IMG/VR virus record: IMGVR_UViG_3300042505_001173
Coordinates: 32,001 to 96,000 of that record
Strand: one strand, 5' to 3'
Origin: a virus
Length of the DNA: 64,000 nucleotides
Within the stretch, counting starts at the first letter, position 1. Every line of letters starts with the position of its first letter. The position numbers and the translations under genes were made by a program. This document shows, one piece after another, positions 1,754 through 63,628 of the stretch. The notes under the pieces were generated by a model. That model saw only the letters and a list, made by a program, of their open reading frames with translations. It searched no databases and was not told where the DNA came from.

Positions 1754-3120
1754 AAAATTTGTTATTAAATTCAGATAGTTACAAATATTCAATGCATGTT
1801 CAATACCCACCTGGAACTGATTACGTATATTCATACATTGAATCACGTGGTGGTATTTACGACACGGTAGTGTTTTTTGGACTTCAGATGTTTATCAAAG
1901 ATTATTTGATGAACCCTATTACGATTGAAGATATAGATGAAGCTGAAAAAGTATTATTACCTCATGTTGGAGTTTTTAACCGTGAAGGTTGGGAATATAT
2001 TATAAAACACCATAACGGTAGATTACCAGTTGAGATTAAAGCTGTTAAAGAAGGTACGAAAGTACCTGTTAGTAATGTATTAGTATCGATTATCAATACA
2101 GATCCAAATTGTTTTTGGTTAACGACGTTTCTCGAAACAGCATTATTGCGTGCTATTTGGTACCCAACTACAATTGCAACTCAAGGTTATTATACCAAGA
2201 AGAATATCAAAAAATATTTGGATATGACAAGCGGTATTATTGGTGGACTTGATTATATGTTAATCGATTTCGGAAGTCGTGGAGTTTCTAGTTTAGAAAG
2301 CTCAGAAATCGGTGGAACTGCTCATTTATTAAATTTCAAAGGGTCTGATAATGTTTTAGCTATTGCGTATGCAAAGAAATATTATGGGTGCACAACAGCT
2401 GGCTATAGTGTACCAGCTATGGAACACAGTACTGTTACCAGTTGGGGAAGAGAAAATGAATTTGATTCCTACAATAATATGGTTGAAAAATATAAGGATT
2501 TTCCAATCGTAAGTTGTGTTTCTGATAGTTATGATATCTTTGAAGCATGCCATTATGTTGGCAAACATTTAAAAGATAAAATTATTGCTAATAACCAGAC
2601 CTATGTTATTAGACCTGATTCAGGTGATCCGGAAAAAGTAATTGTTGAATGTTTAGAGATTCTAAGTGGTTATTTTGAATGCAAAGAAAACCTTCATGGG
2701 TATAAAGAGTTATCTAATGTCAAGATATTATGGGGTGATGGCATTAATCATGATAGTATTGAACAAATCATGTATGTAGTTGCCATGGCCGGGTATAGCA
2801 TTAATAATTTAGTTTTTGGTTCTGGTGGAGCATTATTGCAACAAATGAATCGCGATACATTAAAGTTTGCTATGAAATGTAGCGCTATTAGAGTGAACGG
2901 TGTATGGAGAGATGTTTTCAAAAATCCTGTAACTGATAGTGGTAAACAATCTAAACGTGGAGCTGTAAAATTATATCAACATAAAATTGATAAAAAATTC
3001 GTTACAGCTGTTGGTGCACCATCACCTGATTATGAAGATGTTATGGAATTAGTGTATACAAATAATAGATTACACCGCGATCAAACATTAGATGAAATCA
3101 GATGTTTAGTAAATATGTAA
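1750..3120 (+). CDS. nadV: nicotinamide phosphoribosyltransferase
   Basis: SDSYKYS, YSYIESRGG, DFGSRG, SVPAMEHS, VSDSYD, IRPDSGDP, GDGI, FGSGGALLQ motifs. Confidence 0.95.
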   Translation: MKNLLLNSDSYKYSMHVQYPPGTDYVYSYIESRGGIYDTVVFFGLQMFIKDYLMNPITIEDIDEAEKVLLPHVGVFNREGWEYIIKHHNGRLPVEIKAVKEGTKVPVSNVLVSIINTDPNCFWLTTFLETALLRAIWYPTTIATQGYYTKKNIKKYLDMTSGIIGGLDYMLIDFGSRGVSSLESSEIGGTAHLLNFKGSDNVLAIAYAKKYYGCTTAGYSVPAMEHSTVTSWGRENEFDSYNNMVEKYKDFPIVSCVSDSYDIFEACHYVGKHLKDKIIANNQTYVIRPDSGDPEKVIVECLEILSGYFECKENLHGYKELSNVKILWGDGINHDSIEQIMYVVAMAGYSINNLVFGSGGALLQQMNRDTLKFAMKCSAIRVNGVWRDVFKNPVTDSGKQSKRGAVKLYQHKIDKKFVTAVGAPSPDYEDVMELVYTNNRLHRDQTLDEIRCLVNM

Positions 3121-41878: not shown

Positions 41879-44800
41879 ATGGGTAAGATGACAGATATTT
41901 TTCAAATTGTCACACCGTCAACACCTACTTCGGTTGTTCAAGACAATCAATTGATGGATACCGGTTACGCTGCAACTAGCAATTACACGTGGTATCAGAG
42001 ACTAATACAAGGTAGTGGTACTAGACTCACACGTTATAACGAATATGACGTCATGGATAACGATGTCGAGGTAGCTAGAGCTTTAGATATTATCGCAGAA
42101 GAAATGACGGGTAGAAATACAAAGACAAGTCTACCAATTGAACTTAAAATTCTAGACGAAAAACATGCTAATACCGAAGATACAATTGTATTAACGTTAC
42201 GCACCGCATGTCACCATTGGTGTAAAATACACGGGTTTGATGCAAATAGATTATTTAAATTATCTAGAAACATGGTAAAATACGGTGATTGTTTCTTTAG
42301 AAAATCATCTAATTTTAAAAAATGGGAGTGGATACCATCAGGTGCGATAGTAGGTGCAATCGTAGATGACCGTGACGTTACAAATGTTTTAGGTTATCGT
42401 ATCCGTACAGATACTAAATCTACTGGTGTAGCTAATAGTACCAGTTCACCTTTTAGAAATGCAGCTGATCATGGTAAGTTTGAGAATGTATCTATTGATA
42501 ACATGGTTGTATTTTCAATAAACGATGATATGTCGGATGCTGCACCATTCGGTGAATCTGTATTGCGTACGGTTTATAAAACACATAAACAAAAAGAATT
42601 ATTAGAAGACGCTATTATTATTTACCGTATACAACGTGCACCTGAACGTAGAGTATTTTACATTGATGTTGGTAAAATGCCTCCACATCGTGTCAAATCA
42701 TACTTAGAAACGATTAAAAATGAAATTAGACAGAAAAAAATACCGTCTAATAATATGAATGGTCAAAGTTCTGTTGATTCTATTTACAATCCTCAGTCAA
42801 TGTTAGAGGACATATTTCTCGCACAAAGATCTGATGGGGTTGGATCAAAGGTTGAAGTACTGCAAGGTGGTTGCTTCTCAATGGATACAAAAGTATCATT
42901 ATTGGATGGTAGAGAACTATCAATTAGTGATATTGAATTAGAATTAGCTGCAGGTAAAGAGCTATGGACATATTCATGCGAAAAGAGTACTGGTAAAGTA
43001 GTACCTGGTATCATTTCTTGGGCTGGTGTTACACGTAAAGCAGCTAATGTTATGCGTCTAACATTTAACAACGGCGAAAGTGTTGTTTGTACACCTGACC
43101 ATCGGTTCTGTGTATACGGTCAAGAATACAAACGTGCACACGAATTTACAATCGGCGATAGTGTTATACCTCTATACCGTCGTAAAGAATGCTTAAACGA
43201 CGATTATCGTCGCGATTATGAACAGTTTTTTGACAATAGTACTAAAACATGGGTTCACACTCATAGAATGGTTGCTGACACTCTTAAAGATACCGCTGTA
43301 AAATATTGGGTGTATAAACCTGAAAAAAGCAACGGTAAATACGAAGTGAGACACCATATTGACTTCAATAGATTTAATAATAGTCCTTCTAACTTGTGTT
43401 TCATGTCATATATAGATCATCGTCATTACCATGCGAAAGTGACTGCAACATTCTTTAGGGATTTAAAGCACTCTAATATTGATGAATATAATAGAATTAA
43501 AGAAGCGAGACATAACTCTATTAGACGGTACTGGGATAACATCACTACTGAACAAATTGAAGCTCGAAGCGCTAAAGCTCGCAAAACTAAAAGTGAGTGG
43601 TCACAAGAACGCAAATCTAACCACAGATTAACAGTATCTAATTCGTTACGAAAATACATTAACGGGTTATCACCGGAACAGCGTGCAGCACGTGATGATG
43701 CATCTCGTAAGCATTTCGGTAAACATGCTAACAGTATTTTTAATGAAAAAATGTTGAATGATTTAGAGTTTAGAGCGCAAGTTTTAGCTAACCGTAGAAA
43801 AGCTTGGACTGATGGAAAACGACAATTGAAAGCTGAGCAGATGTCTGCTCAACAAAAACAACGCCATTCTGACCCTGAATATCAGCGATGGTATAGAAAA
43901 CAGCATCAAGAAAACCAAAAAGTTGTATTTACGCATGATATGTTGAAGTTTGCTATTAATTTAATTAAAGGTAAAACATCTCATCAATTTACGTTAGTTG
44001 ATGTTATTAGAGAGCTTAACGCAAACGAAGAATTAATATCTGAGTTACGTGATTTAAACAAACATAAAAATGTACCAAACTGGAACATTGATGATGGTTT
44101 TACCAGTTCAAATGTAAGAACTATGGTTAAGCAATTTGGTTATGATAGTTGGTATGATTTACGTAAAAATGAAAGTATACACAATCATACAATCGTAAAA
44201 ATTGAGTACTTAGATGATACTGTCGACGTCGGCACGTTAACAATCGATCAAGATGAAGTGCATCATAGTCATCACACCTTCGCGTTAAGTTGCGGGGTGT
44301 TTGTACTAAATTCTCAGCTTGGTGAAAATTCCGATCTGGACTACTTCAGTGATAAAGTATTATGCGGTTTACGTATCCCAAAAGGATGGATGGGCAGACA
44401 CAGAGAAGATTCAGGTGCTGTATTTAACGACGGTAAATTAGGTGCAGCATATATTGAAGAACAACAATTTGCTAAATTCGTTGAAAGGTTACAGGTATAC
44501 GTATCAGCTGTACTAGACTACGAATTCAAATTATTTTTATTTGAAAGTAACATACAAATAGATAACACTATATTTGAAATTGCTTTACCTAAACCATCTA
44601 ACTACGAAAAATACAAACAAGCTGATCTTGATAGTGCTTTATTAGGTACAATTGGTACCGCTGACAGCATTTCATGGTTATCGAAACGTTGGATTGCTAG
44701 AAACTACCTACAAATGAGTGAAGAGCAACTAATTGACAACGAAAACTTGTTGAAACAAGAAAAAGGTATTGATAGTAAAGATAAAACGTTACAATCTATT

Positions 44801-51972: not shown

Positions 51973-53457
51973 CTAAAAACTGATACTTTCGTATCTTGGA
52001 GAGTTAACAACCTCCATCATCATACCTTCAGGTGATAAAATCTCATCTTGCTCACCTGTTATATACTTCAAGATATTTGGACTAAAACCTGAAATCATAC
52101 AGGTATTAGGAGTATTATGTACTACTGGAAAATTGCCAGAGTTAGCATTAACATTCCAGAATACTAACTTAGGAATTGTATATCCAGCAATTTCAAATGA
52201 CGATCTAATTGTTTCATAGAACGTTTCAACCGCTGAAGCTTTAATTTGACTACGAGTAATAGCATTAAATTCCATATCAGAAATGATATAAATTGTTCCA
52301 ACCATATCACTAGGTGACAACTGATTAGTAATAGCTGCTTGTAGAATTAATTTAAACACTGCTTCAAGGTCTGTTGACATACCCCATTCAGCGTGTGAAA
52401 GATTATGAACCTTTTCAAAGATATTATTACCTTTTAAATCTTGAATTCTTGGGGTTTCACTAAACGTAATGAATTTGTCACGATATGGACCTTTTGCTCG
52501 TTCAGCAAAATAAATTGCTAACGATATACAAACTTCCATTGGAAGACCTGACATTGAACCACTAACATCAGCTACAACGATAGCGTTACTATCAACATCA
52601 ATTTTTGGTAAGTTTTTCCATAAAATTTCTGCTTCATCTGGTTTAATGTCACTTGTCCAATTGTTTAAAATTTTACCAACGATTTGATATGGATATAAAG
52701 TACTAGCGTTAACATGAACTTTCCCGTCTTTAGCTAATGTAATAAATTCTTCATAACGGGTAGCATCATTTCTTGCAAATGCTTTGCGATGTTTTAGTAA
52801 ACATTGACTTGGTAACTTAGAATAAGTAATGGTATCCCATTGTTTAGCACTCATACGATTTTCAGCAACTTCAAGATATCTGTTCAAATTTGAACATAAT
52901 TTACGATAATCTTTTGATGATAGCCCAAAAGCTTTACGCGTTAAATTACCTAATCGGACTGATTCTTTACTTGAAGTATTGATACGTTTTAACCATTTAC
53001 CTAAAATTGAAATAGGTTGATTTGATGTGATACCCTCAAGATCTCTACGTGATTGATCTTTCATTAAACTAAAAGCATATGATTCACAAGGTGTACCGAC
53101 AACTGAATAAAGATCATCCCATCTTCCGTATTCAGCAACGAGGTCTAATAGGTTTTTTGTTTGATCTGGGTAGTTACGAGCAAGCCATTCTAATTGAATA
53201 CGAAATGGTCTTCTTTGACCTTGACCACCACGAATATCTCTAAACATGTACATTAACCGTACAGCAATTGTCTTTTCTTGTGCAAATGCACGTGTAAACA
53301 AACTTAAAATTTCACTTTCGGTTCTTGATCTAATTGATCCACCTTGAGCAAAGAAATCAACACAATTGTTTAAAGATGAATGGTTAGTAATAGCACCGTT
53401 TTGTGTTGTTGAATGATTCATTTGATTTGAAATCGCTGATAAGAATTTTTCGGTCAT
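51973..53457 (-). CDS. Ro60/TROVE-like helical domain + vWA domain protein (DUF2828 type); start revised to MTEKFL
   Basis: TTQNGA, RDIRGGQGQR, YGRWDDL, KW, LYPYQI, MIDAS DVSGSM, ISDMEF, VFWN, ISGFSP; GGAG RBS 6 nt before ATG 53457. Confidence 0.8.
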   Translation of the reverse strand: MTEKFLSAISNQMNHSTTQNGAITNHSSLNNCVDFFAQGGSIRSRTESEILSLFTRAFAQEKTIAVRLMYMFRDIRGGQGQRRPFRIQLEWLARNYPDQTKNLLDLVAEYGRWDDLYSVVGTPCESYAFSLMKDQSRRDLEGITSNQPISILGKWLKRINTSSKESVRLGNLTRKAFGLSSKDYRKLCSNLNRYLEVAENRMSAKQWDTITYSKLPSQCLLKHRKAFARNDATRYEEFITLAKDGKVHVNASTLYPYQIVGKILNNWTSDIKPDEAEILWKNLPKIDVDSNAIVVADVSGSMSGLPMEVCISLAIYFAERAKGPYRDKFITFSETPRIQDLKGNNIFEKVHNLSHAEWGMSTDLEAVFKLILQAAITNQLSPSDMVGTIYIISDMEFNAITRSQIKASAVETFYETIRSSFEIAGYTIPKLVFWNVNANSGNFPVVHNTPNTCMISGFSPNILKYITGEQDEILSPEGMMMEVVNSPRYESISF

Positions 53458-53466
53458 TTTGTACTC

Positions 53467-54198
53467 CAAGACATTAATTGTTAAATTGCGGATACTGTCT
53501 TTATAACTAGATGCATAAGTCATTTTCAATAATGAGTTGTTTAATTGCTGGAAGCATCTATAAGTGTTTAGGTTTTACCCTAAAAATATAAACTTGAAAC
53601 AAACTTATATTTTTAAGATCGAATGTTCCAACCAATACACCTCTAAGTCTGTCAGGACTTAGTTTATTTCATGGAGACTATTTTTAATCGCTGTATGTGC
53701 GGTTATTGGAACACCCAATTTTTAAAAATATAGACCTGTTTTTAGCAACCCACATTCATTCCAATAAGATTAGATATGTAATTGCTGTAAGTGAGTTTTA
53801 TAACAGGTCTACATCTGTACATCAATATGAGGTTTTTCACGATGATCGATCACTTATTGTGACCATCAAACGTTTAACCTCTCTGCATTAAAATTATATG
53901 CTGTACTACACCTACTTGGAGGTGCCATCTTAAACCAAGATGGAGCAAGATCTTATTAACATTTTCGATTATTGCTGTTAAGATCTTTGATAAAAGAGCG
54001 GTCACGATCTAAATTTAACATTTGCAGTGTTTATAAAATTGCTGTTGAGATCGTTGATTTTACTAATAACTTTCAAGACCTTATTCACGTTTTCGAGTAT
54101 GAGTCGATTATTGTTGCAGTTAAGGTCTTACGTAAACTAGATTCTGTTTATGTGTTCAGATTAGAGGTCTGATATTAAATGGTTGCTGTTCGAATCTA
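53467..54198 (-). ncRNA. array of about 9 hairpin RNA units with conserved ACAGCAA motif (Y-RNA-like array)
   Basis: Units at 54137-54198, 54074-54129, 54003-54054, 53946-53987, ~53805-53913, 53731-53811, 53624-53713, 53507-53560, 53467-53501; each is stem + ACAGCAA-like motif + variable insert + complementary stem. Confidence 0.8.
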
Positions 54199-54206
54199 TA
54201 AAACGT

Positions 54207-60625: not shown

Positions 60626-61357
60626 TTACTTTAATGATAACGATCTATCAAATGCATCAATATAATAATCGTGTAATTTGTCTAAGTAATTAGAATTTCG
60701 TAAATCTTTAAATACTAAATTTTCAATTGAGAACTCACCGCCTCGTTCGAGTCCAGCTTGTCTCATATTTTTGATTTTTTTACGAAGTTCTTTAATTTTA
60801 GCGCAATTTTTACTATCTTTAAATCCGTCAATGCGTTGTTTTAAAGCTTGTGATTTTACATTGATAGCGTATTCGTTTACTTCACGTTCAATTCCTTTTT
60901 TACGTTTGGGTTGAGTAACCCATTCGTCATTTTGCAAGCTGTACACGCCAGTTGAATGGTGTGGCTCATCTTCTAGTTGTGTATAAACTTCAACAGGAAA
61001 ATTAAAGATTGTAATATCGTGTAAATCATTCCATATCTGATTTTTATCTTTTAATATATCAGCTAATTCAAACCCGCATTCACCGCAGTCTGAGTCACTT
61101 TTATTAATTATAACATGAACATCGATATCTGAAAATCTGGTATAGTTATAATTTGCTAAACTACCAGTCATTACGATGTCAGTTATATGATACATAGGAT
61201 CAAGATCTAAATTTTCAAAATATAAGTTAGCAATTTTTAACAATTGACGTCTTACTTTTGCTTTTAGTTTGTTGTTGTCCCATAATCTTGAATTTAATTC
61301 AGAATGATATTCGAAACTGTATGATTCGATTAAGAATTGTGTTAATGATTGTTTCAT
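60626..61357 (-). CDS. Pol-beta-superfamily nucleotidyltransferase
   Basis: TGSLANYNYTRFSDIDVH, PVEVY, GEFSIENLVFK.LRN; TATAAATA at 61389-61396. Confidence 0.8.
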   Translation of the reverse strand: MKQSLTQFLIESYSFEYHSELNSRLWDNNKLKAKVRRQLLKIANLYFENLDLDPMYHITDIVMTGSLANYNYTRFSDIDVHVIINKSDSDCGECGFELADILKDKNQIWNDLHDITIFNFPVEVYTQLEDEPHHSTGVYSLQNDEWVTQPKRKKGIEREVNEYAINVKSQALKQRIDGFKDSKNCAKIKELRKKIKNMRQAGLERGGEFSIENLVFKDLRNSNYLDKLHDYYIDAFDRSLSLK

Positions 61358-61435: not shown

Positions 61436-62080
61436 TTAACAATTCCATTTTTTTAATGCTAAAGCTTTACGTGTAGGTTTACCATGTTTGTCTTTCATTG
61501 GTCCTTTAACACCGCTCATTCTAGCACAAAAGCTTTTACGTCTTTTATAAGCTTTACTATCTTTCTTTAATTTACTTGGTTTGGTTGTTACAGCTGTCTG
61601 CAATTTACTACCAGGATGTTCTTTACGGTAGCTTGCTACACCTTTTGCGTTTAAACCACCGTTTTTATTTTTACCTTCTTTACGAGTCCATGCAGCAGCT
61701 TCAAAAAGCTCATCATCACTTACAGACTCAAAATCATCCCAAATAACATCGCTATCAACACCATGATGAATAGCTAAATTATCTACCATAGTTTCAATCA
61801 TATCAAACATTTCATGAACAGATGGGTTAATACCACGTTGTTCTTGACTTTGCAAATAATCCCAAACTGATACAAGAATATACTCAGCTTTAGCTATTTT
61901 TTCTTGAACCCATTCAGGTAAATTCTCATTTTTTTCAATTGTCTTCATTAGACCCGATGCAGCACGGGCAATCGTGAGTAGATGACCGTGAGCAGTGCCT
62001 GCTTCATCATTATACTCAGAATTCATATTTTCGTTAGCAACCGTGCTAACACGAGTGGTTAATATATCATTTACTTTCAT
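61436..62080 (-). CDS. late hypothetical protein with acidic N-half and basic DUF6321-like C-terminal domain
   Basis: LPEWVQEKI; AAWTRKEGKNKNGGLNAKG...RRKSFCARMSG...ALKKWNC; TATAAATA at 62106-62113. Confidence 0.7.
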   Translation of the reverse strand: MKVNDILTTRVSTVANENMNSEYNDEAGTAHGHLLTIARAASGLMKTIEKNENLPEWVQEKIAKAEYILVSVWDYLQSQEQRGINPSVHEMFDMIETMVDNLAIHHGVDSDVIWDDFESVSDDELFEAAAWTRKEGKNKNGGLNAKGVASYRKEHPGSKLQTAVTTKPSKLKKDSKAYKRRKSFCARMSGVKGPMKDKHGKPTRKALALKKWNC

Positions 62081-62144: not shown

Positions 62145-62183
62145 AAAAAAAAGACTTAACTGAAAAAACAGTAAGTCTTTTTT
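62145..62183 (-). terminator. terminator of the Y-like RNA
   Basis: AAGACTTA(A)CTG-N6-CAGTAAGTCTT flanked by A8 and T tracts. Confidence 0.75.
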
Positions 62184-62187
62184 AATA

Positions 62188-62302
62188 CAAGATTCATTTT
62201 AATTTCAATTATTCTACCAACTGAACTACATAACCTTTCGGTTATGGTGGGAATCGAACCCACGACACATTGATTCCGATTATATATTGCTGTTAGAATC
62301 TT
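62188..62302 (-). ncRNA. Y-RNA (YrlA)-like RNA: ACAGCAA stem enclosing a circularly permuted tRNA body
   Basis: AAGATTC-TA-ACAGCAA...TCAAT GTGTC GTGGG TTCGATT CCCAC CATAACC GAAA GGTTATG TA GTTC AGTTGGTA GAAT A ATTGA...GAATCTTG. Confidence 0.85.
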
Positions 62303-62315
62303 AACTTCAAATACA

Positions 62316-62344
62316 ATTATAATATGTTATATAGTATTGATCAA
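62316..62344 (-). promoter_or_regulatory. sigma70-type promoter of the Y-like RNA
   Basis: TTGATC-17-TATAAT. Confidence 0.8.
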
Positions 62345-62428: not shown

Positions 62429-63628
62429 TTAATAATTAATTTCAATTAACGGAAATAGCAATCTAAATGCTGTACCGTGGTTTGATTCAGCTGTATTTGA
62501 GTCGACGATAATATGACCATTAGCGTCATGTACCATACCGCTAACGGTTGACAATCCTAAGCCTGTACCTTCACCAATAGGTTTTGTAGTAAAAAATGGA
62601 TCAAAAATATGATCAATTACAGTTTGATCAATACCTGTACCAGTATCTAGAACACGTAATTCAATATAATCATTTGAAATAATATGTTGAGCACACGATG
62701 TACAAATTTGATTATGAATATTGACTTGTTTTAATGAAACTACAATAGTACCACCATTTTTCATGGAATCACGAGCATTAATAATCAAATTAGTTAAAAT
62801 TTGATGTAAATCAATAGCATCTATTTGAATATCAAGATAGTTGTCGACATTTGTTTCAAGGTGAAACCTACTAGTTAATGCTGGACCTACCATTGATGCA
62901 ACATCGTATATTACTTCTTGTGTTGGTCGTATTTCTATATCTTTATCAGCTGAGTTTTGACGTGAATAAGCTAGCATTTTACTAATCAAGCTAGATGCGC
63001 GTTTACTAGCAACGTTAACTGCGTTTACATTGTATATAAAGTCAGCTTTGCGTTGTTCATCCGGACAATCTTCTGCTAATAATAAGTTGAGTTCGTTGTA
63101 ACCTAATATACAGTTTAAAATATTATTAAAATCGTGTGCTATACCTGCTGTTAACCGACTAAGGCTTTCGATTTTTTGCATCTGGTTAACTTGTTTGTTT
63201 AATAATAGTAAAGCGGCTTTATTTTTTTCACGCTCAGTAATATCTTTAAACACACCCATATAGCCAATTATATTACCGTCATCGTCATTAATTGTAGATG
63301 GTCTAACAGATACTTGATGTTTACCTAACGTCATTGTAAACTCTTGACAGCTTGATAATTTTTTGATTAGTTCTTTTTGATTGTTAGTATTTTTATGAAA
63401 CATAACAATATTAACGCCAATCATTTTATTAACGTTAAAAGATGGGAATTTTTTTTGAATCTCTGATTCTGCAGCAGTAAAAATTTTTACTGCGCTATCA
63501 TTATAATAAACAACGTTGCGATCTGCATCTGTAATAACAACAGCATCGTTTAATGAATTTAAACCTTTTGTTAGACGAAAATTACATAGACTGAGATTTT
63601 CATTGGGTGTAGCTGTTATTGTTGGCAT
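62429..63628 (-). CDS. PAS-domain sensor histidine kinase
   Basis: PAS (FHKN, FKDITE); H box AGIAHDFNN; N box NLIINARD; G1 DTGTG; F box FDPFFTTK; G2 GTGLGL. Confidence 0.92.
   Translation of the reverse strand: MPTITATPNENLSLCNFRLTKGLNSLNDAVVITDADRNVVYYNDSAVKIFTAAESEIQKKFPSFNVNKMIGVNIVMFHKNTNNQKELIKKLSSCQEFTMTLGKHQVSVRPSTINDDDGNIIGYMGVFKDITEREKNKAALLLLNKQVNQMQKIESLSRLTAGIAHDFNNILNCILGYNELNLLLAEDCPDEQRKADFIYNVNAVNVASKRASSLISKMLAYSRQNSADKDIEIRPTQEVIYDVASMVGPALTSRFHLETNVDNYLDIQIDAIDLHQILTNLIINARDSMKNGGTIVVSLKQVNIHNQICTSCAQHIISNDYIELRVLDTGTGIDQTVIDHIFDPFFTTKPIGEGTGLGLSTVSGMVHDANGHIIVDSNTAESNHGTAFRLLFPLIEINY

What the first reader, a model, noticed from the sequence alone, without database searches (positions are those of the whole stretch)
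62145..62344. Stand-alone circularly permuted tRNA mimic carrying the same ACAGCAA handle
Seen: it has its own promoter (TTGATC-17-TATAAT) and terminator. Inside the AAGATTC/GAATCTT stem with ACAGCAA, the order is anticodon-stem 3' strand (TCAAT), variable loop (GTGTC), T arm (GTGGG-TTCGATT-CCCAC), a 7-bp acceptor stem closed by a GAAA tetraloop (CATAACC/GGTTATG), TA, D arm (GTTC-AGTTGGTA-GAAT), A, and anticodon-stem 5' strand (ATTGA). It is a full cloverleaf with the acceptor end sealed and the anticodon loop replaced by the handle. Known: this is the topology of bacterial YrlA Y RNAs, but those use a different Ro-binding stem. Inference: it links the array 8 kb away to a Ro-like RNP. It cannot be aminoacylated unless processed, so it may act as a tRNA-elbow decoy or as a tether for a nuclease or ligase.
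Basis: partly seen in the sequence, partly recalled or inferred. Interest (0 to 1): 0.87.

Follow-up and report, generated by a model that had tools for sequence, protein, structure and literature searches.

The report
Phage tRNA-shaped partner RNA for Ro60-like protein
This is a real small-RNA gene in a T4-like phage: a complete tRNA shape with its ends sealed and rewired onto a short "handle" (a clamp helix plus ACAGCAA). The same handle marks the RNAs encoded beside the phage's Ro60-like protein gene, so this RNA is most likely a partner of that protein, in a protein-RNA pairing I found described in no paper.

Summary
**Observation: confirmed.** Re-joined in normal order, the RNA is called a canonical 76-nt tRNA. 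In its native order it is no tRNA and reaches only 41 bits on Rfam YrlA (cut-off 69).

**Family.** It belongs to a widespread phage RNA family. The order is clamp helix, 2 nt, ACAGCAA, variable part, T arm, sealed acceptor stem, D arm, clamp helix, invariant G. All four helices covary in 72 sequences (94.5% paired against 35-45% in controls).

**Association with the protein.** The handle travels with DUF2828/DUF7788 proteins. The window's copy (51973-53529) is predicted to fold like Ro60 over its full length. Its five upstream array units are found by the same RNA model.

**Best reading (0.72).** It is a Y-RNA-like partner of this Ro60-like protein, analogous to YrlA but with a different protein family and a different binding module. 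The tRNA-shaped body would act as adaptor or bait. Binding, expression and function are untested.

**Literature anchor.** In phage Bas63 the homologous protein (gp130) counters the Ppl defence. I found the same RNAs unannotated beside that gene.

**Earlier notes.** This scan has noted the same pairing before on other DNA (at least 19 genomes).

**Verdict.** New variant of a known kind; interest 0.66.

The parts
62316..62344 (-). Sigma-70-like promoter: -35 TTGATC (62344-62339), 17-nt spacer, -10 TATAAT (62321-62316). The start of transcription is inferred near 62309.
   Evidence: 10 of 12 matches. The start site is inferred, not mapped.
62296..62302 (-). Clamp (closing) helix, 5' strand AAGAUUC. 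It pairs with 62189-62195.
   Evidence: All 7 family pairs covary (helix 1, 93.7% paired).
62287..62295 (-). Handle motif: 2-nt spacer UA, then ACAGCAA (62293-62287), predicted unpaired.
   Evidence: In the family alignment the ACAGCAA positions are 65-72 of 74 conserved.
62274..62286 (-). 5' linker UAUAUAAUCGGAA between the handle and the tRNA-like body.
   Evidence: This region varies in length and content across the family.
62264..62273 (-). Anticodon-stem 3' strand UCAAU (62273-62269) and 5-nt variable loop GUGUC (62268-62264).
62247..62263 (-). T arm GUGGG-UUCGAUU-CCCAC.
   Evidence: Family helix 2 is 99.7% paired.
62229..62246 (-). Acceptor stem sealed by a GAAA tetraloop: CAUAACC-GAAA-GGUUAUG.
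   Evidence: All 7 family pairs covary (helix 3). The first pair is C-G here and U-A in the close relative.
62205..62228 (-). UA (tRNA positions 8-9), D arm GUUC-AGUUGGUA-GAAU, A26, and the anticodon-stem 5' strand AUUGA.
   Evidence: Family helix 4 is 97.1% paired.
62188..62204 (-). A-rich 3' linker AAUUAAAAU, clamp helix 3' strand GAAUCUU (62195-62189), and the G that follows it (62188).
   Evidence: The G after the helix is present in 72 of 74 family sequences.
62145..62183 (-). Intrinsic terminator: a 15-bp bulged hairpin followed by a U8 run.
   Evidence: -14.3 kcal/mol, z -4.7.
51973..53529 (-). Gene for the 518-aa Ro60-like protein (DUF2828 + DUF7788, intact MIDAS residues), the proposed protein partner. 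It lies 8.7 kb downstream on the same strand.
53743..54200 (-). Array of short handle RNAs just upstream of the protein gene. Five units are detected: 54134-54200, 54071-54131, 54000-54056, 53943-53989 and 53743-53799.
   Evidence: 22-30 bits each, matched through the handle alone.

Best explanation
The element is a stand-alone gene for a small RNA of roughly 120-165 nt with two modules.

**Module 1, the handle.** A 7-bp clamp helix joins the two ends. After its 5' strand come a 2-nt spacer and unpaired ACAGCAA; after its 3' strand comes a conserved G. The short RNAs encoded directly upstream of the phage's Ro60-like gene (DUF2828/DUF7788) carry the same signature. The handle is inferred to dock the RNA onto that ring-shaped protein, as the conserved stem of a Y RNA docks onto Ro60.

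**Module 2, the body.** A complete L-shaped tRNA body, with the acceptor end sealed by a GAAA loop and the anticodon loop opened and wired to the handle. It cannot be charged or decode. It can still present the tRNA elbow and acceptor/T-arm stack to proteins that recognise tRNA shape.

**Proposed mechanism.** By analogy with YrlA, this is an adaptor or bait RNA. It would bring a tRNA-binding host or phage factor to the Ro60-like ring, or hold such a factor away from real tRNAs, during infection. The likely setting is RNA surveillance or repair, or counter-defence.

**Shown here:** the anatomy, family membership, covariation, the predicted Ro60 fold of the protein, and genomic co-occurrence.

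**Inferred:** expression, binding to the protein, and the biological role.
For: **Anatomy.** Confirmed.

**Rfam.** YrlA aligns the tRNA-like module at 41.2 bits, E 1.2e-7.

**Family**
- The pattern ACAGCAA followed by a T loop filled the scan's 118-stretch limit in viral contigs.
- A clamp helix of 7 bp or more flanks the motif in 51% of hits, against 7% when partners are swapped.
- In 72 distinct sequences, mostly outside the seed, 94.5% of cells pair. The slid controls give 35-45%. The covariation score is 0.869 against 0.09-0.15, and 0 of 500 shuffles reach it.
- The window's RNA fits the family consensus at every handle position.

**Same handle as the array.** Model R1 finds five array units in the phage's own genome and nothing else there.

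**Protein**
- DUF2828 + DUF7788.
- AlphaFold2 model with pLDDT 86 and pTM 0.85.
- Best structural matches are Ro60 over about 535 columns: 1YVR at E 2.5e-9 and TM 0.57, also Rsr and the phiLo phage Ro60.
- The MIDAS residues D321, S323, S325, T386 and D418 are invariant.

**Co-occurrence**
- 26 of 48 viral records with the pattern encode the protein. The rate among phage records is 711 of 50,697.
- Among records at least 90% complete with a well-formed element, 8 have DUF2828, 1 has a TROVE protein and 1 has neither.
- All 12 named phages that encode DUF2828 have R1 matches, mostly beside the gene.

**Conservation.** The nearest relative keeps the element at the same site, at 92 bits.

**Functional anchor.** Bas63 gp130 counters the Ppl defence (preprint 10.1101/2024.10.10.617714). 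I verified that it is a homologue (35% identity, E 1.4e-72) with the same RNAs beside it.
Against: - No binding, expression or processing data exist for this RNA or any family member. The link to the protein rests on co-occurrence and analogy.
- The gene lies 8.7 kb from the protein gene.
- Relatives whose protein is 57-60% identical have no such element within 10 kb. A relative at 82% has ordinary tRNA genes at the site instead. The tRNA-shaped member is therefore dispensable.
- Model R1 is not handle-specific. It also scores TROVE-type YrlAs (61 bits) and tandem tRNAs.
- One well-formed element sits in a 99%-complete record that has neither DUF2828 nor TROVE.
- The base rate used for comparison comes from a different collection.
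- The nearest relative has ACUGCAA, so the motif tolerates change.
- The viral record is only 54% complete, and no RtcB was found in it.
Confidence: 0.72

Rival explanations
1. The handle RNAs are real, but they bind some other factor: a host protein or another phage protein (for example an RRM or La-like protein). The Ro60-like protein would only work in the same pathway, without docking on ACAGCAA.
For: - Only co-occurrence links the RNA to the protein.
- One complete record has the RNA without DUF2828 or TROVE.
- The look-alike Dictyostelium Class I RNAs are reported to bind an RRM protein directly (PMC7919456).
- A weak RRM_2 match lies 2 kb away in the window, E 9e-4, below Pfam's cut-off.
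Against: - The RNAs sit immediately beside the DUF2828 gene in phages of very different lineages.
- Stem plus conserved unpaired motif plus variable module is the Y-RNA design, and the protein has the Ro60 fold.
- No other gene was seen to travel with the RNAs. I did not test this systematically.
Confidence: 0.13
2. It is a circularly permuted tRNA gene whose transcript is processed (cut, re-joined or circularised) into a working, chargeable tRNA.
For: - The re-joined sequence is a flawless cloverleaf.
- It sits in the phage's tRNA neighbourhood. tRNA-Gln and tRNA-Pro lie 2.4-2.7 kb upstream, and a relative has tRNA genes at the same site.
- M. smegmatis YrlA is cut by RNase P and receives CCA (PMC4201824).
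Against: - There is no anticodon loop. Its place is taken by 13-nt and 9-nt linkers and the handle.
- The family keeps the handle and the sealed acceptor under covariation, while the region where an anticodon arm could lie is variable.
- To my knowledge, permuted tRNA genes that mature into tRNAs are known only from a few eukaryotic algae and archaea.
Confidence: 0.03
3. It is a decayed or rearranged tRNA remnant with a chance ACAGCAA and no function.
For: - ACAGCAA alone is common: 19 sites in the window and 50 in the genome.
- A loose stem search next to random 7-mers succeeds 15% of the time.
- More distant relatives lack the element.
Against: - Its own promoter and terminator.
- All tertiary-contact bases are intact.
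- The relative shows compensatory change.
- The same ordered architecture recurs with covariation in 72 sequences from unrelated phages.
Confidence: 0.04
4. It is a cis-acting leader that controls the downstream DUF6321 gene (61436-62080) through the terminator, as tRNA-sensing leaders do.
For: - The terminator lies between the RNA and the next gene on the same strand, 65 nt before its start.
- In the relative, the element ends 34 nt before the homologous gene.
Against: - I could see no alternative pairing between the element and the terminator.
- The relative shows no terminator in that gap.
- Family members sit next to many different genes, or inside tRNA arrays.
- The handle is shared with RNAs in a different location.
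Confidence: 0.04

Closest known systems
YrlA, the tRNA-like Y RNA bound by bacterial and phage Ro60/Rsr (Rfam RF02553; Chen et al. 2014, PMC4201824)
   Same: - Same module order: protein-binding stem joining the two ends, then T arm, sealed acceptor-like stem and D arm.
- Same idea of a tRNA mimic tethered to a ring-shaped protein with the Ro60 fold.
- The Rfam model aligns the whole tRNA-like part (41 bits). Accepted phage examples also score only 32-42 bits.
   Different: - The partner protein is DUF2828/DUF7788, not Pfam TROVE. It has no sequence match to any solved Ro60 and only 13-14% identity in structural alignment.
- The binding module is a short 7-bp clamp plus unpaired ACAGCAA plus a 3' G, not a long helix with GNCGAA.
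- The gene is 8.7 kb from the protein gene, not adjacent.
Thermus phage phiLo Ro60 with Yrl1/Yrl2 (PMC12135203; PDB 9KOP, 9L5Y)
   Same: - A phage-encoded Ro60 ring with phage-encoded partner RNAs next to the gene.
- It assembles with host PNPase in vitro, and a counter-defence role has been proposed.
- It is among the structural matches of the window's protein.
   Different: - TROVE-type protein.
- The RNAs were picked by a CGAA motif in a stem-bulge-stem and are not described as full tRNA mimics.
Bas63 (Felixounavirus) gp130, a Ro60-like protein that counters the Ppl defence (preprint 10.1101/2024.10.10.617714)
   Same: - gp130 is a homologue of the window's protein (35% identity, E 1.4e-72).
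- The same two RNA types lie beside it, in gaps of the tRNA array: handle-only at 82237-82300 and tRNA-shaped at 82779-82910.
   Different: - The authors guessed that some annotated tRNA genes might be Y RNAs. The candidates I find are unannotated and are not those tRNAs.
- No RNA partner was shown.
- Whether the window's phage meets Ppl is unknown.
Dictyostelium Class I RNAs (Rfam RF01414; Kjellin et al. 2021, PMC7919456)
   Same: - A short stem joins the 5' and 3' ends, an unpaired conserved motif follows the 5' strand directly, and the rest is variable.
- The model consensus is CCUUACAGCAA. The five positions the paper calls near-invariant (T3, C6, C9, A10, A11) all match UCUAACAGCAA here.
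- A conserved CUGU lies at the 3' end, compared with CUUGU here.
   Different: - Eukaryotic, about 60 nt, with no tRNA-like body.
- The Rfam model gives only 16-30 bits on phage units, below its 41.5 cut-off, and no match on this element.
- The reported direct binder is an RRM protein.
- Common descent is untested.
Permuted tRNA genes and two-piece (permuted) tmRNA
   Same: The 3' half of the tRNA-like structure is encoded before the 5' half.
   Different: - Those are processed into molecules with a free CCA end that is charged.
- Here the acceptor end is sealed, there is no anticodon and no tag reading frame. ARAGORN finds no tmRNA, and the Rfam tmRNA matches (13-19 bits) cover only the T arm.

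Membership tests
YrlA (Rfam RF02553) | Score at or above the curated gathering cut-off (69 bits). | tested here: not met
   41.2 bits, E 1.2e-7. TROVE-type phage YrlAs of CcrColossus and Bxz1 also score only 42 and 32 bits, so this criterion is weak for phages.
YrlA (Rfam RF02553) | tRNA-like domain in the order T arm, closed acceptor-like stem, D arm. | tested here: met
YrlA (Rfam RF02553) | Ro60-binding helix carrying the GNCGAA(N)G motif on its 5' strand (PMC4201824). | tested here: not met
   The outer helix columns are marked as non-pairs in the Rfam alignment. The element has ACAGCAA after a 7-bp clamp instead. TROVE-type examples show the GNCGA-type motif.
YrlA (Rfam RF02553) | Encoded next to a TROVE-domain Ro60 orthologue. 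| tested here: not met
   The only Ro60-like gene found is DUF2828/DUF7788, 8.7 kb away. No Pfam TROVE match was listed for it.
ACAGCAA-handle RNAs of DUF2828 proteins (family defined in this scan, not in the literature I could search) | Clamp helix joining the ends, 2-nt spacer, ACAGCAA, and a G after the 3' strand. | tested here: met
   The window RNA was a seed of model R1, so its 104 bits are by construction. It fits the consensus of the 72 other sequences at every handle position.
ACAGCAA-handle RNAs of DUF2828 proteins (family defined in this scan, not in the literature I could search) | A DUF2828/DUF7788 gene in the same genome. | tested here: met
   Across the family.
ACAGCAA-handle RNAs of DUF2828 proteins (family defined in this scan, not in the literature I could search) | Physical, motif-dependent binding to the protein. 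| not testable with these tools
   No binding data and no RNA-protein structure prediction were available.
Ro60 / TROVE proteins (for the partner protein) | HEAT-repeat ring plus vWA domain with a MIDAS site. | tested here: met
   Model pLDDT 86. Full-length Foldseek matches to Ro60, TM 0.55-0.59. D321, S323, S325, T386 and D418 are invariant.
Ro60 / TROVE proteins (for the partner protein) | Sequence membership in Pfam TROVE (PF05731). | tested here: not met
   Pfam lists only DUF2828 and DUF7788. phmmer finds no PDB match even at E 10.
Dictyostelium Class I RNA (RF01414) | Score at or above the gathering cut-off (41.5 bits). | tested here: not met
   No match on the element. Related short units score 16.1 and 29.8 bits.
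Canonical tRNA gene | Contiguous cloverleaf with an anticodon loop and a free acceptor end. | tested here: not met
   ARAGORN and Rfam tRNA find nothing in native order. A tRNA is called only after artificial re-permutation.

The most novel reading that the evidence does not exclude
DUF2828 proteins and their ACAGCAA-handle RNAs form a second, so far undescribed branch of the Ro60/Y-RNA world. Phages would use it as a modular display platform: one protein ring and interchangeable RNA cargoes (whole tRNA bodies such as this one, anticodon arms, other hairpins). The cargoes would bait, titrate or recruit host enzymes that act on tRNA, and so defeat defences such as Ppl. The same handle in Dictyostelium Class I RNAs would then point to a shared, cross-kingdom RNA-protein recognition code.
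Probability: 0.3. Interest if true: 0.88.

Novelty: new variant of a known kind. Interest (0 to 1): 0.66.

Why it matters
**What it would add.** Ro60 and its Y RNAs are a classic but still poorly understood RNA-surveillance particle. Homologues of the DUF2828-type protein are encoded in 711 sequenced phage records. These include tractable ones: Felix O1-like Bas63, KVP40, and Listeria, Staphylococcus, Enterococcus and cluster L mycobacterium phages. The protein is annotated only as "Ro-like" or "RNA-binding", and no RNA partner is known.

**A testable prediction.** A defined handle (clamp helix + ACAGCAA + G) gives a direct prediction of what the protein binds. It also reveals unannotated or misannotated RNA genes in well-known phage genomes.

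**What this instance shows.** The tRNA-shaped member can be an independent transcription unit far from the protein gene, so searches limited to the gene's neighbourhood will miss partners.

**Why it could be tested soon.** One homologous protein already has a counter-defence phenotype, so the RNA's role could be tested quickly by genetics.

Tried and rejected
- **DNA similarity searches.** blastn of the element and of the protein-array region against 50,697 phage records found nothing. The family is too divergent for DNA search.
- **Standard detectors.** Rfam at gathering thresholds and ARAGORN on native sequence found nothing in the window.
- **Single-protein locus search.** A single-protein search of viral contigs returned only one relative.
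- **Simple handle detector.** ACAGCAA plus any stem of 7 bp or more within 150 nt is not specific within one genome. 15% of scrambled 7-mers pass, so I did not use it as evidence.
- **Model R1 as a handle detector.** It also scores TROVE-type YrlAs and tandem tRNAs in T4, T5, Bxz1 and CcrColossus. I therefore used R1 only for alignment and covariation, and for the short handle-only matches.
- **Context genes.** No RtcB in the record, which is 54% complete. The neighbours are uninformative: DUF6321, a nucleotidyltransferase, a PAS histidine kinase and genes of unknown function. The nucleotidyltransferase stays in relatives that lack the RNA, so I do not link the two.
- **Sources not available.** The supplement of Chen et al. 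2014 and the 2020 Ro60 review were not held. I could not check whether cluster L mycobacteriophage RNAs were ever listed as YrlA.
- **Protein atlas.** It returned only DUF2828 clusters and said nothing about Dictyostelium.
- **Rejected readings.** Permuted tRNA or tmRNA gene, tRNA relic, and cis-acting leader (see rivals).
Full report
**1. What is there**

The element lies on the minus strand. Read 5' to 3', it contains:
- a sigma-70-like promoter, TTGATC-17-TATAAT, at 62344..62316 (10 of 12 matches);
- the clamp strand AAGAUUC (62302-62296);
- UA, then ACAGCAA (62293-62287);
- a 13-nt linker;
- UCAAU, then GUGUC;
- the T arm GUGGG-UUCGAUU-CCCAC;
- CAUAACC-GAAA-GGUUAUG;
- UA;
- the D arm GUUC-AGUUGGUA-GAAU;
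- A, then AUUGA;
- a 9-nt A-rich linker;
- the clamp strand GAAUCUU (62195-62189), then G;
- a bulged 15-bp hairpin with a U8 run (62183-62145; -14.3 kcal/mol, z -4.7).

All parts are at the stated positions. The lowest-energy fold recovers the clamp, the T arm and the sealed acceptor hairpin (z -2.9).

ARAGORN finds no tRNA in the native window. I joined the 3' part (GGUUAUG...AUUGA) to the 5' part (UCAAU...CAUAACC) through an artificial 7-nt loop. ARAGORN then calls a canonical 76-nt cloverleaf. Read from the sequence, the bases that hold a tRNA in its L shape are all present: U8, A14, G15/C48, G18G19, G53-C61 and U54-A58.

**2. Genome context**

- The window is part of a 147.6-kb viral record estimated 54% complete.
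- Close relatives carry T4-type portal, baseplate and major capsid genes.
- The record has two ordinary tRNA genes (Gln, Pro) 2.4-2.7 kb upstream of the element, on the same strand.
- The 518-aa gene at 51973-53529 matches DUF2828 and DUF7788.
- Upstream of it lie about 700 nt of non-coding DNA tiled by short stem-plus-ACAGCAA units.

**3. The partner protein**

- The protein has no sequence match to any solved structure.
- An AlphaFold2 model from 35 homologues is confident (pLDDT 86, pTM 0.85).
- Its best structural matches, over the full length, are Ro60 proteins. These are Xenopus Ro (1YVR, E 2.5e-9, TM 0.57), human Ro60, Deinococcus Rsr and the Thermus phage phiLo Ro60. vWA domains follow only far below.
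- The MIDAS residues D321, S323, S325, T386 and D418 are invariant.
- It is therefore Ro60-like in fold but not a Pfam TROVE member.
- The family is very large: more than 6,899 clusters, with homologues in 711 of 50,697 phage records. Hosts include Escherichia, Mycobacterium, Salmonella, Vibrio, Listeria, Staphylococcus, Campylobacter, Enterococcus and Bacillus.
- In most of the named phages I examined, the gene sits in or beside a tRNA gene cluster.

**4. The RNA family**

Rfam YrlA matches the element at 41.2 bits (E 1.2e-7, cut-off 69). It aligns the T arm, acceptor hairpin and D arm but not the outer helix.

Evidence that the architecture recurs:
- 51% of hits have a clamp helix of 7 bp or more next to the motif, against 7% when upstream and downstream parts are swapped between hits.
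- Thirty clear members aligned well. All four helices show compensatory changes. The clamp helix in that set was selected for, so this is not independent evidence for it.

I built model R1 from these 30 and searched 80 other stretches. This gave 74 matches (72 distinct), mostly outside the seed.
- 94.5% of cells pair, against 35-45% when partners are slid.
- The covariation score is 0.869 against 0.09-0.15, and 0 of 500 shuffles reach it.
- Every pair of the clamp, acceptor and D helices shows changes on both sides.
- Caveat: this alignment is fitted to the model.

The handle consensus is A(A/G)GAnnC, NN, ACAGCAA ... GnnUC(U/C)U, G. The G after the helix is present in 72 of 74 sequences. The window's RNA fits at every position.

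**5. Link to the array and to the protein**

- In the phage's own genome, R1 finds the element and five array units (22-30 bits, matched through the handle with the tRNA part deleted). It finds nothing else.
- Of 48 viral records with the pattern, 26 encode a homologue of the protein.
- Among records at least 90% complete with a well-formed element, 8 have DUF2828 and 1 has a TROVE protein instead. One has neither.
- Six complete records whose hits lacked a well-formed element (no seed membership and no R1 match) have no homologue. A seventh (G041) does carry DUF2828.
- All 12 named phages that encode DUF2828 have R1 matches, mostly next to the gene.
- Some of these lie kilobases away, as here: about 11 kb in KVP40 and about 5 kb in Enterococcus phage EF5.
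- The association is strong but correlative. The base rate comes from another collection.

**6. Contrast with TROVE-type YrlA**

- In CcrColossus and Bxz1, which lack DUF2828, the tRNA-like RNAs found by R1 and by Rfam have long closing helices with GNCGA-type motifs and no ACAGCAA.
- Rfam scores them only 42 and 32 bits. The failed cut-off therefore says little by itself.
- The two systems look like cousins: the same tRNA-mimic module and the same protein fold, with a different protein family and a different docking module.

**7. Conservation of this copy**

- The relative whose protein is 80% identical keeps the element (92 bits) at the same site, just upstream of the DUF6321 gene. The first acceptor pair changes from C-G to U-A, the D-stem G-U becomes A-U, and the handle reads ACUGCAA.
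- A relative at 82% has ordinary tRNA-Cys, -Tyr and -Gln genes there instead.
- Relatives at 57-60% have only the array.
- The tRNA-shaped member is therefore a recent, exchangeable occupant of the phage's tRNA region.

**8. How it most likely works**

Shown:
- a transcription unit for a small RNA with a handle and a sealed, anticodon-less tRNA body;
- family-wide selection on both modules;
- co-occurrence with a Ro60-fold protein.

Inferred:
- the handle docks on the protein, as a Y-RNA stem docks on Ro60;
- the tRNA body engages factors that read tRNA shape, candidates being RNase P, CCA-adding enzyme, modification enzymes, tRNA-directed nucleases or repair ligases;
- the RNA acts as tether or bait.

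Supporting literature:
- YrlA is modified by TruB and DusA. M. smegmatis YrlA is cut by RNase P and receives CCA (PMC4201824).
- phiLo Ro60 with its RNAs assembles with host PNPase (PMC12135203).
- Deleting Bas63 gene 130 makes the phage sensitive to the Ppl defence (preprint 10.1101/2024.10.10.617714).

I verified that gp130 is a homologue of the window's protein. A handle-only RNA (82237-82300) and a tRNA-shaped handle RNA (82779-82910, 66 bits) lie unannotated in the gaps of its tRNA array. I put 0.72 on the partner-RNA reading. The specific role is open.

**9. Rivals**

- Another protein binds the handle (0.13).
- A permuted tRNA gene that matures into a tRNA (0.03). There is no anticodon loop, and the sealed acceptor is conserved.
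- A functionless relic (0.04). Covariation, its own promoter and terminator, and intact tertiary bases argue against it.
- A cis-acting leader of the next gene (0.04). I saw no alternative pairing, and family members have varied neighbours.

**10. Novelty**

- Full-text searches for DUF2828, for ACAGCAA with tRNA-like and phage, for Ro60 with phage and Y RNA, and for Ro-like found no description of these RNAs.
- The nearest statements are the Bas63 speculation and annotations such as "Ro-like RNA-binding protein" (PMC13148394).
- The library holds open-access papers only, so absence is not proof.
- Earlier notes of this scan report the same pairing in at least 19 other genomes. I treated them as leads and re-derived the points above.
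- The resemblance to Dictyostelium Class I RNAs is striking at motif level (stem, CCUUACAGCAA, CUGU 3' end; PMC7919456). It does not reach the Rfam cut-off, and common descent is untested.

Noticed in passing
L155:1501-1628 (Mycobacterium phage Gardann, KX507361.1 42086-42213): A tRNA-shaped handle RNA (68.7 bits) lies directly after the 'Ro-like RNA binding protein' gene. It has the variant motif ACAGUAA and an inner hairpin with a GUU anticodon-like loop. The GenBank record annotates part of it as tRNA-Asn (42089-42159); ARAGORN calls no tRNA there.
   Followed up: partly
L206:2438-2501 and 2980-3111 (Escherichia phage Bas63, MZ501086.1 82237-82300 and 82779-82910): Two unannotated handle RNAs sit in gaps of the tRNA array downstream of gene 130. 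The tRNA-shaped one is overlapped by an antisense 'hypothetical protein' CDS (bas63_0137), which is probably a false gene call.
   Followed up: partly
L017:1230-1660 (Enterococcus phage PEF1, upstream of its DUF2828 gene): Each of three handle RNAs is preceded by a second conserved element of about 50 nt (GGUUUUG...AGUUCC-loop-GGAAC-AUAAAGAA). It may be a processing signal or a separate small RNA.
   Followed up: no
L048 (IMG/VR record G018, 167 kb, complete): This record has tRNA-shaped RNAs, one carrying ACAGCAA after a 14-bp closing helix. It encodes a TROVE-domain protein and no DUF2828. It may be a bridge between the two systems, or a chance motif.
   Followed up: partly
L057 (IMG/VR record G027, 332-kb 'provirus', 99% complete): A well-formed tRNA-shaped handle RNA (65.6 bits) in a record with neither a DUF2828, DUF7788 nor TROVE match. 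The partner protein may be too divergent to detect or may be absent.
   Followed up: partly
L184:222-831 (relative whose Ro60-like protein is 82% identical): The site that holds the tRNA mimic in the window holds ordinary tRNA-Cys, tRNA-Tyr and tRNA-Gln genes in this relative. The slot appears to exchange tRNA-type cargo.
   Followed up: partly
window 62429-63628 (-): A 399-aa PAS / HisKA / HATPase sensor histidine kinase gene lies immediately upstream of the RNA gene. That is an unusual gene for a phage.
   Followed up: no
L162:1459-1568 (Synechococcus phage B23, annotated 'tRNA-Undet') and L180:1452-1568 (Aeromonas phage LAh_9): Stretches of 110-117 nt beside DUF2828 genes score as tRNA (51-54 bits) despite large insertions. 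The B23 stretch overlaps an R1 match. They may be a further way of joining a handle to a tRNA body.
   Followed up: no
window 60626-61357 (-): A 243-aa nucleotidyltransferase (NTP_transf_2, Pol-beta-like) is syntenic in all relatives examined, whether or not they carry the tRNA mimic. No link to the RNA is shown.
   Followed up: partly
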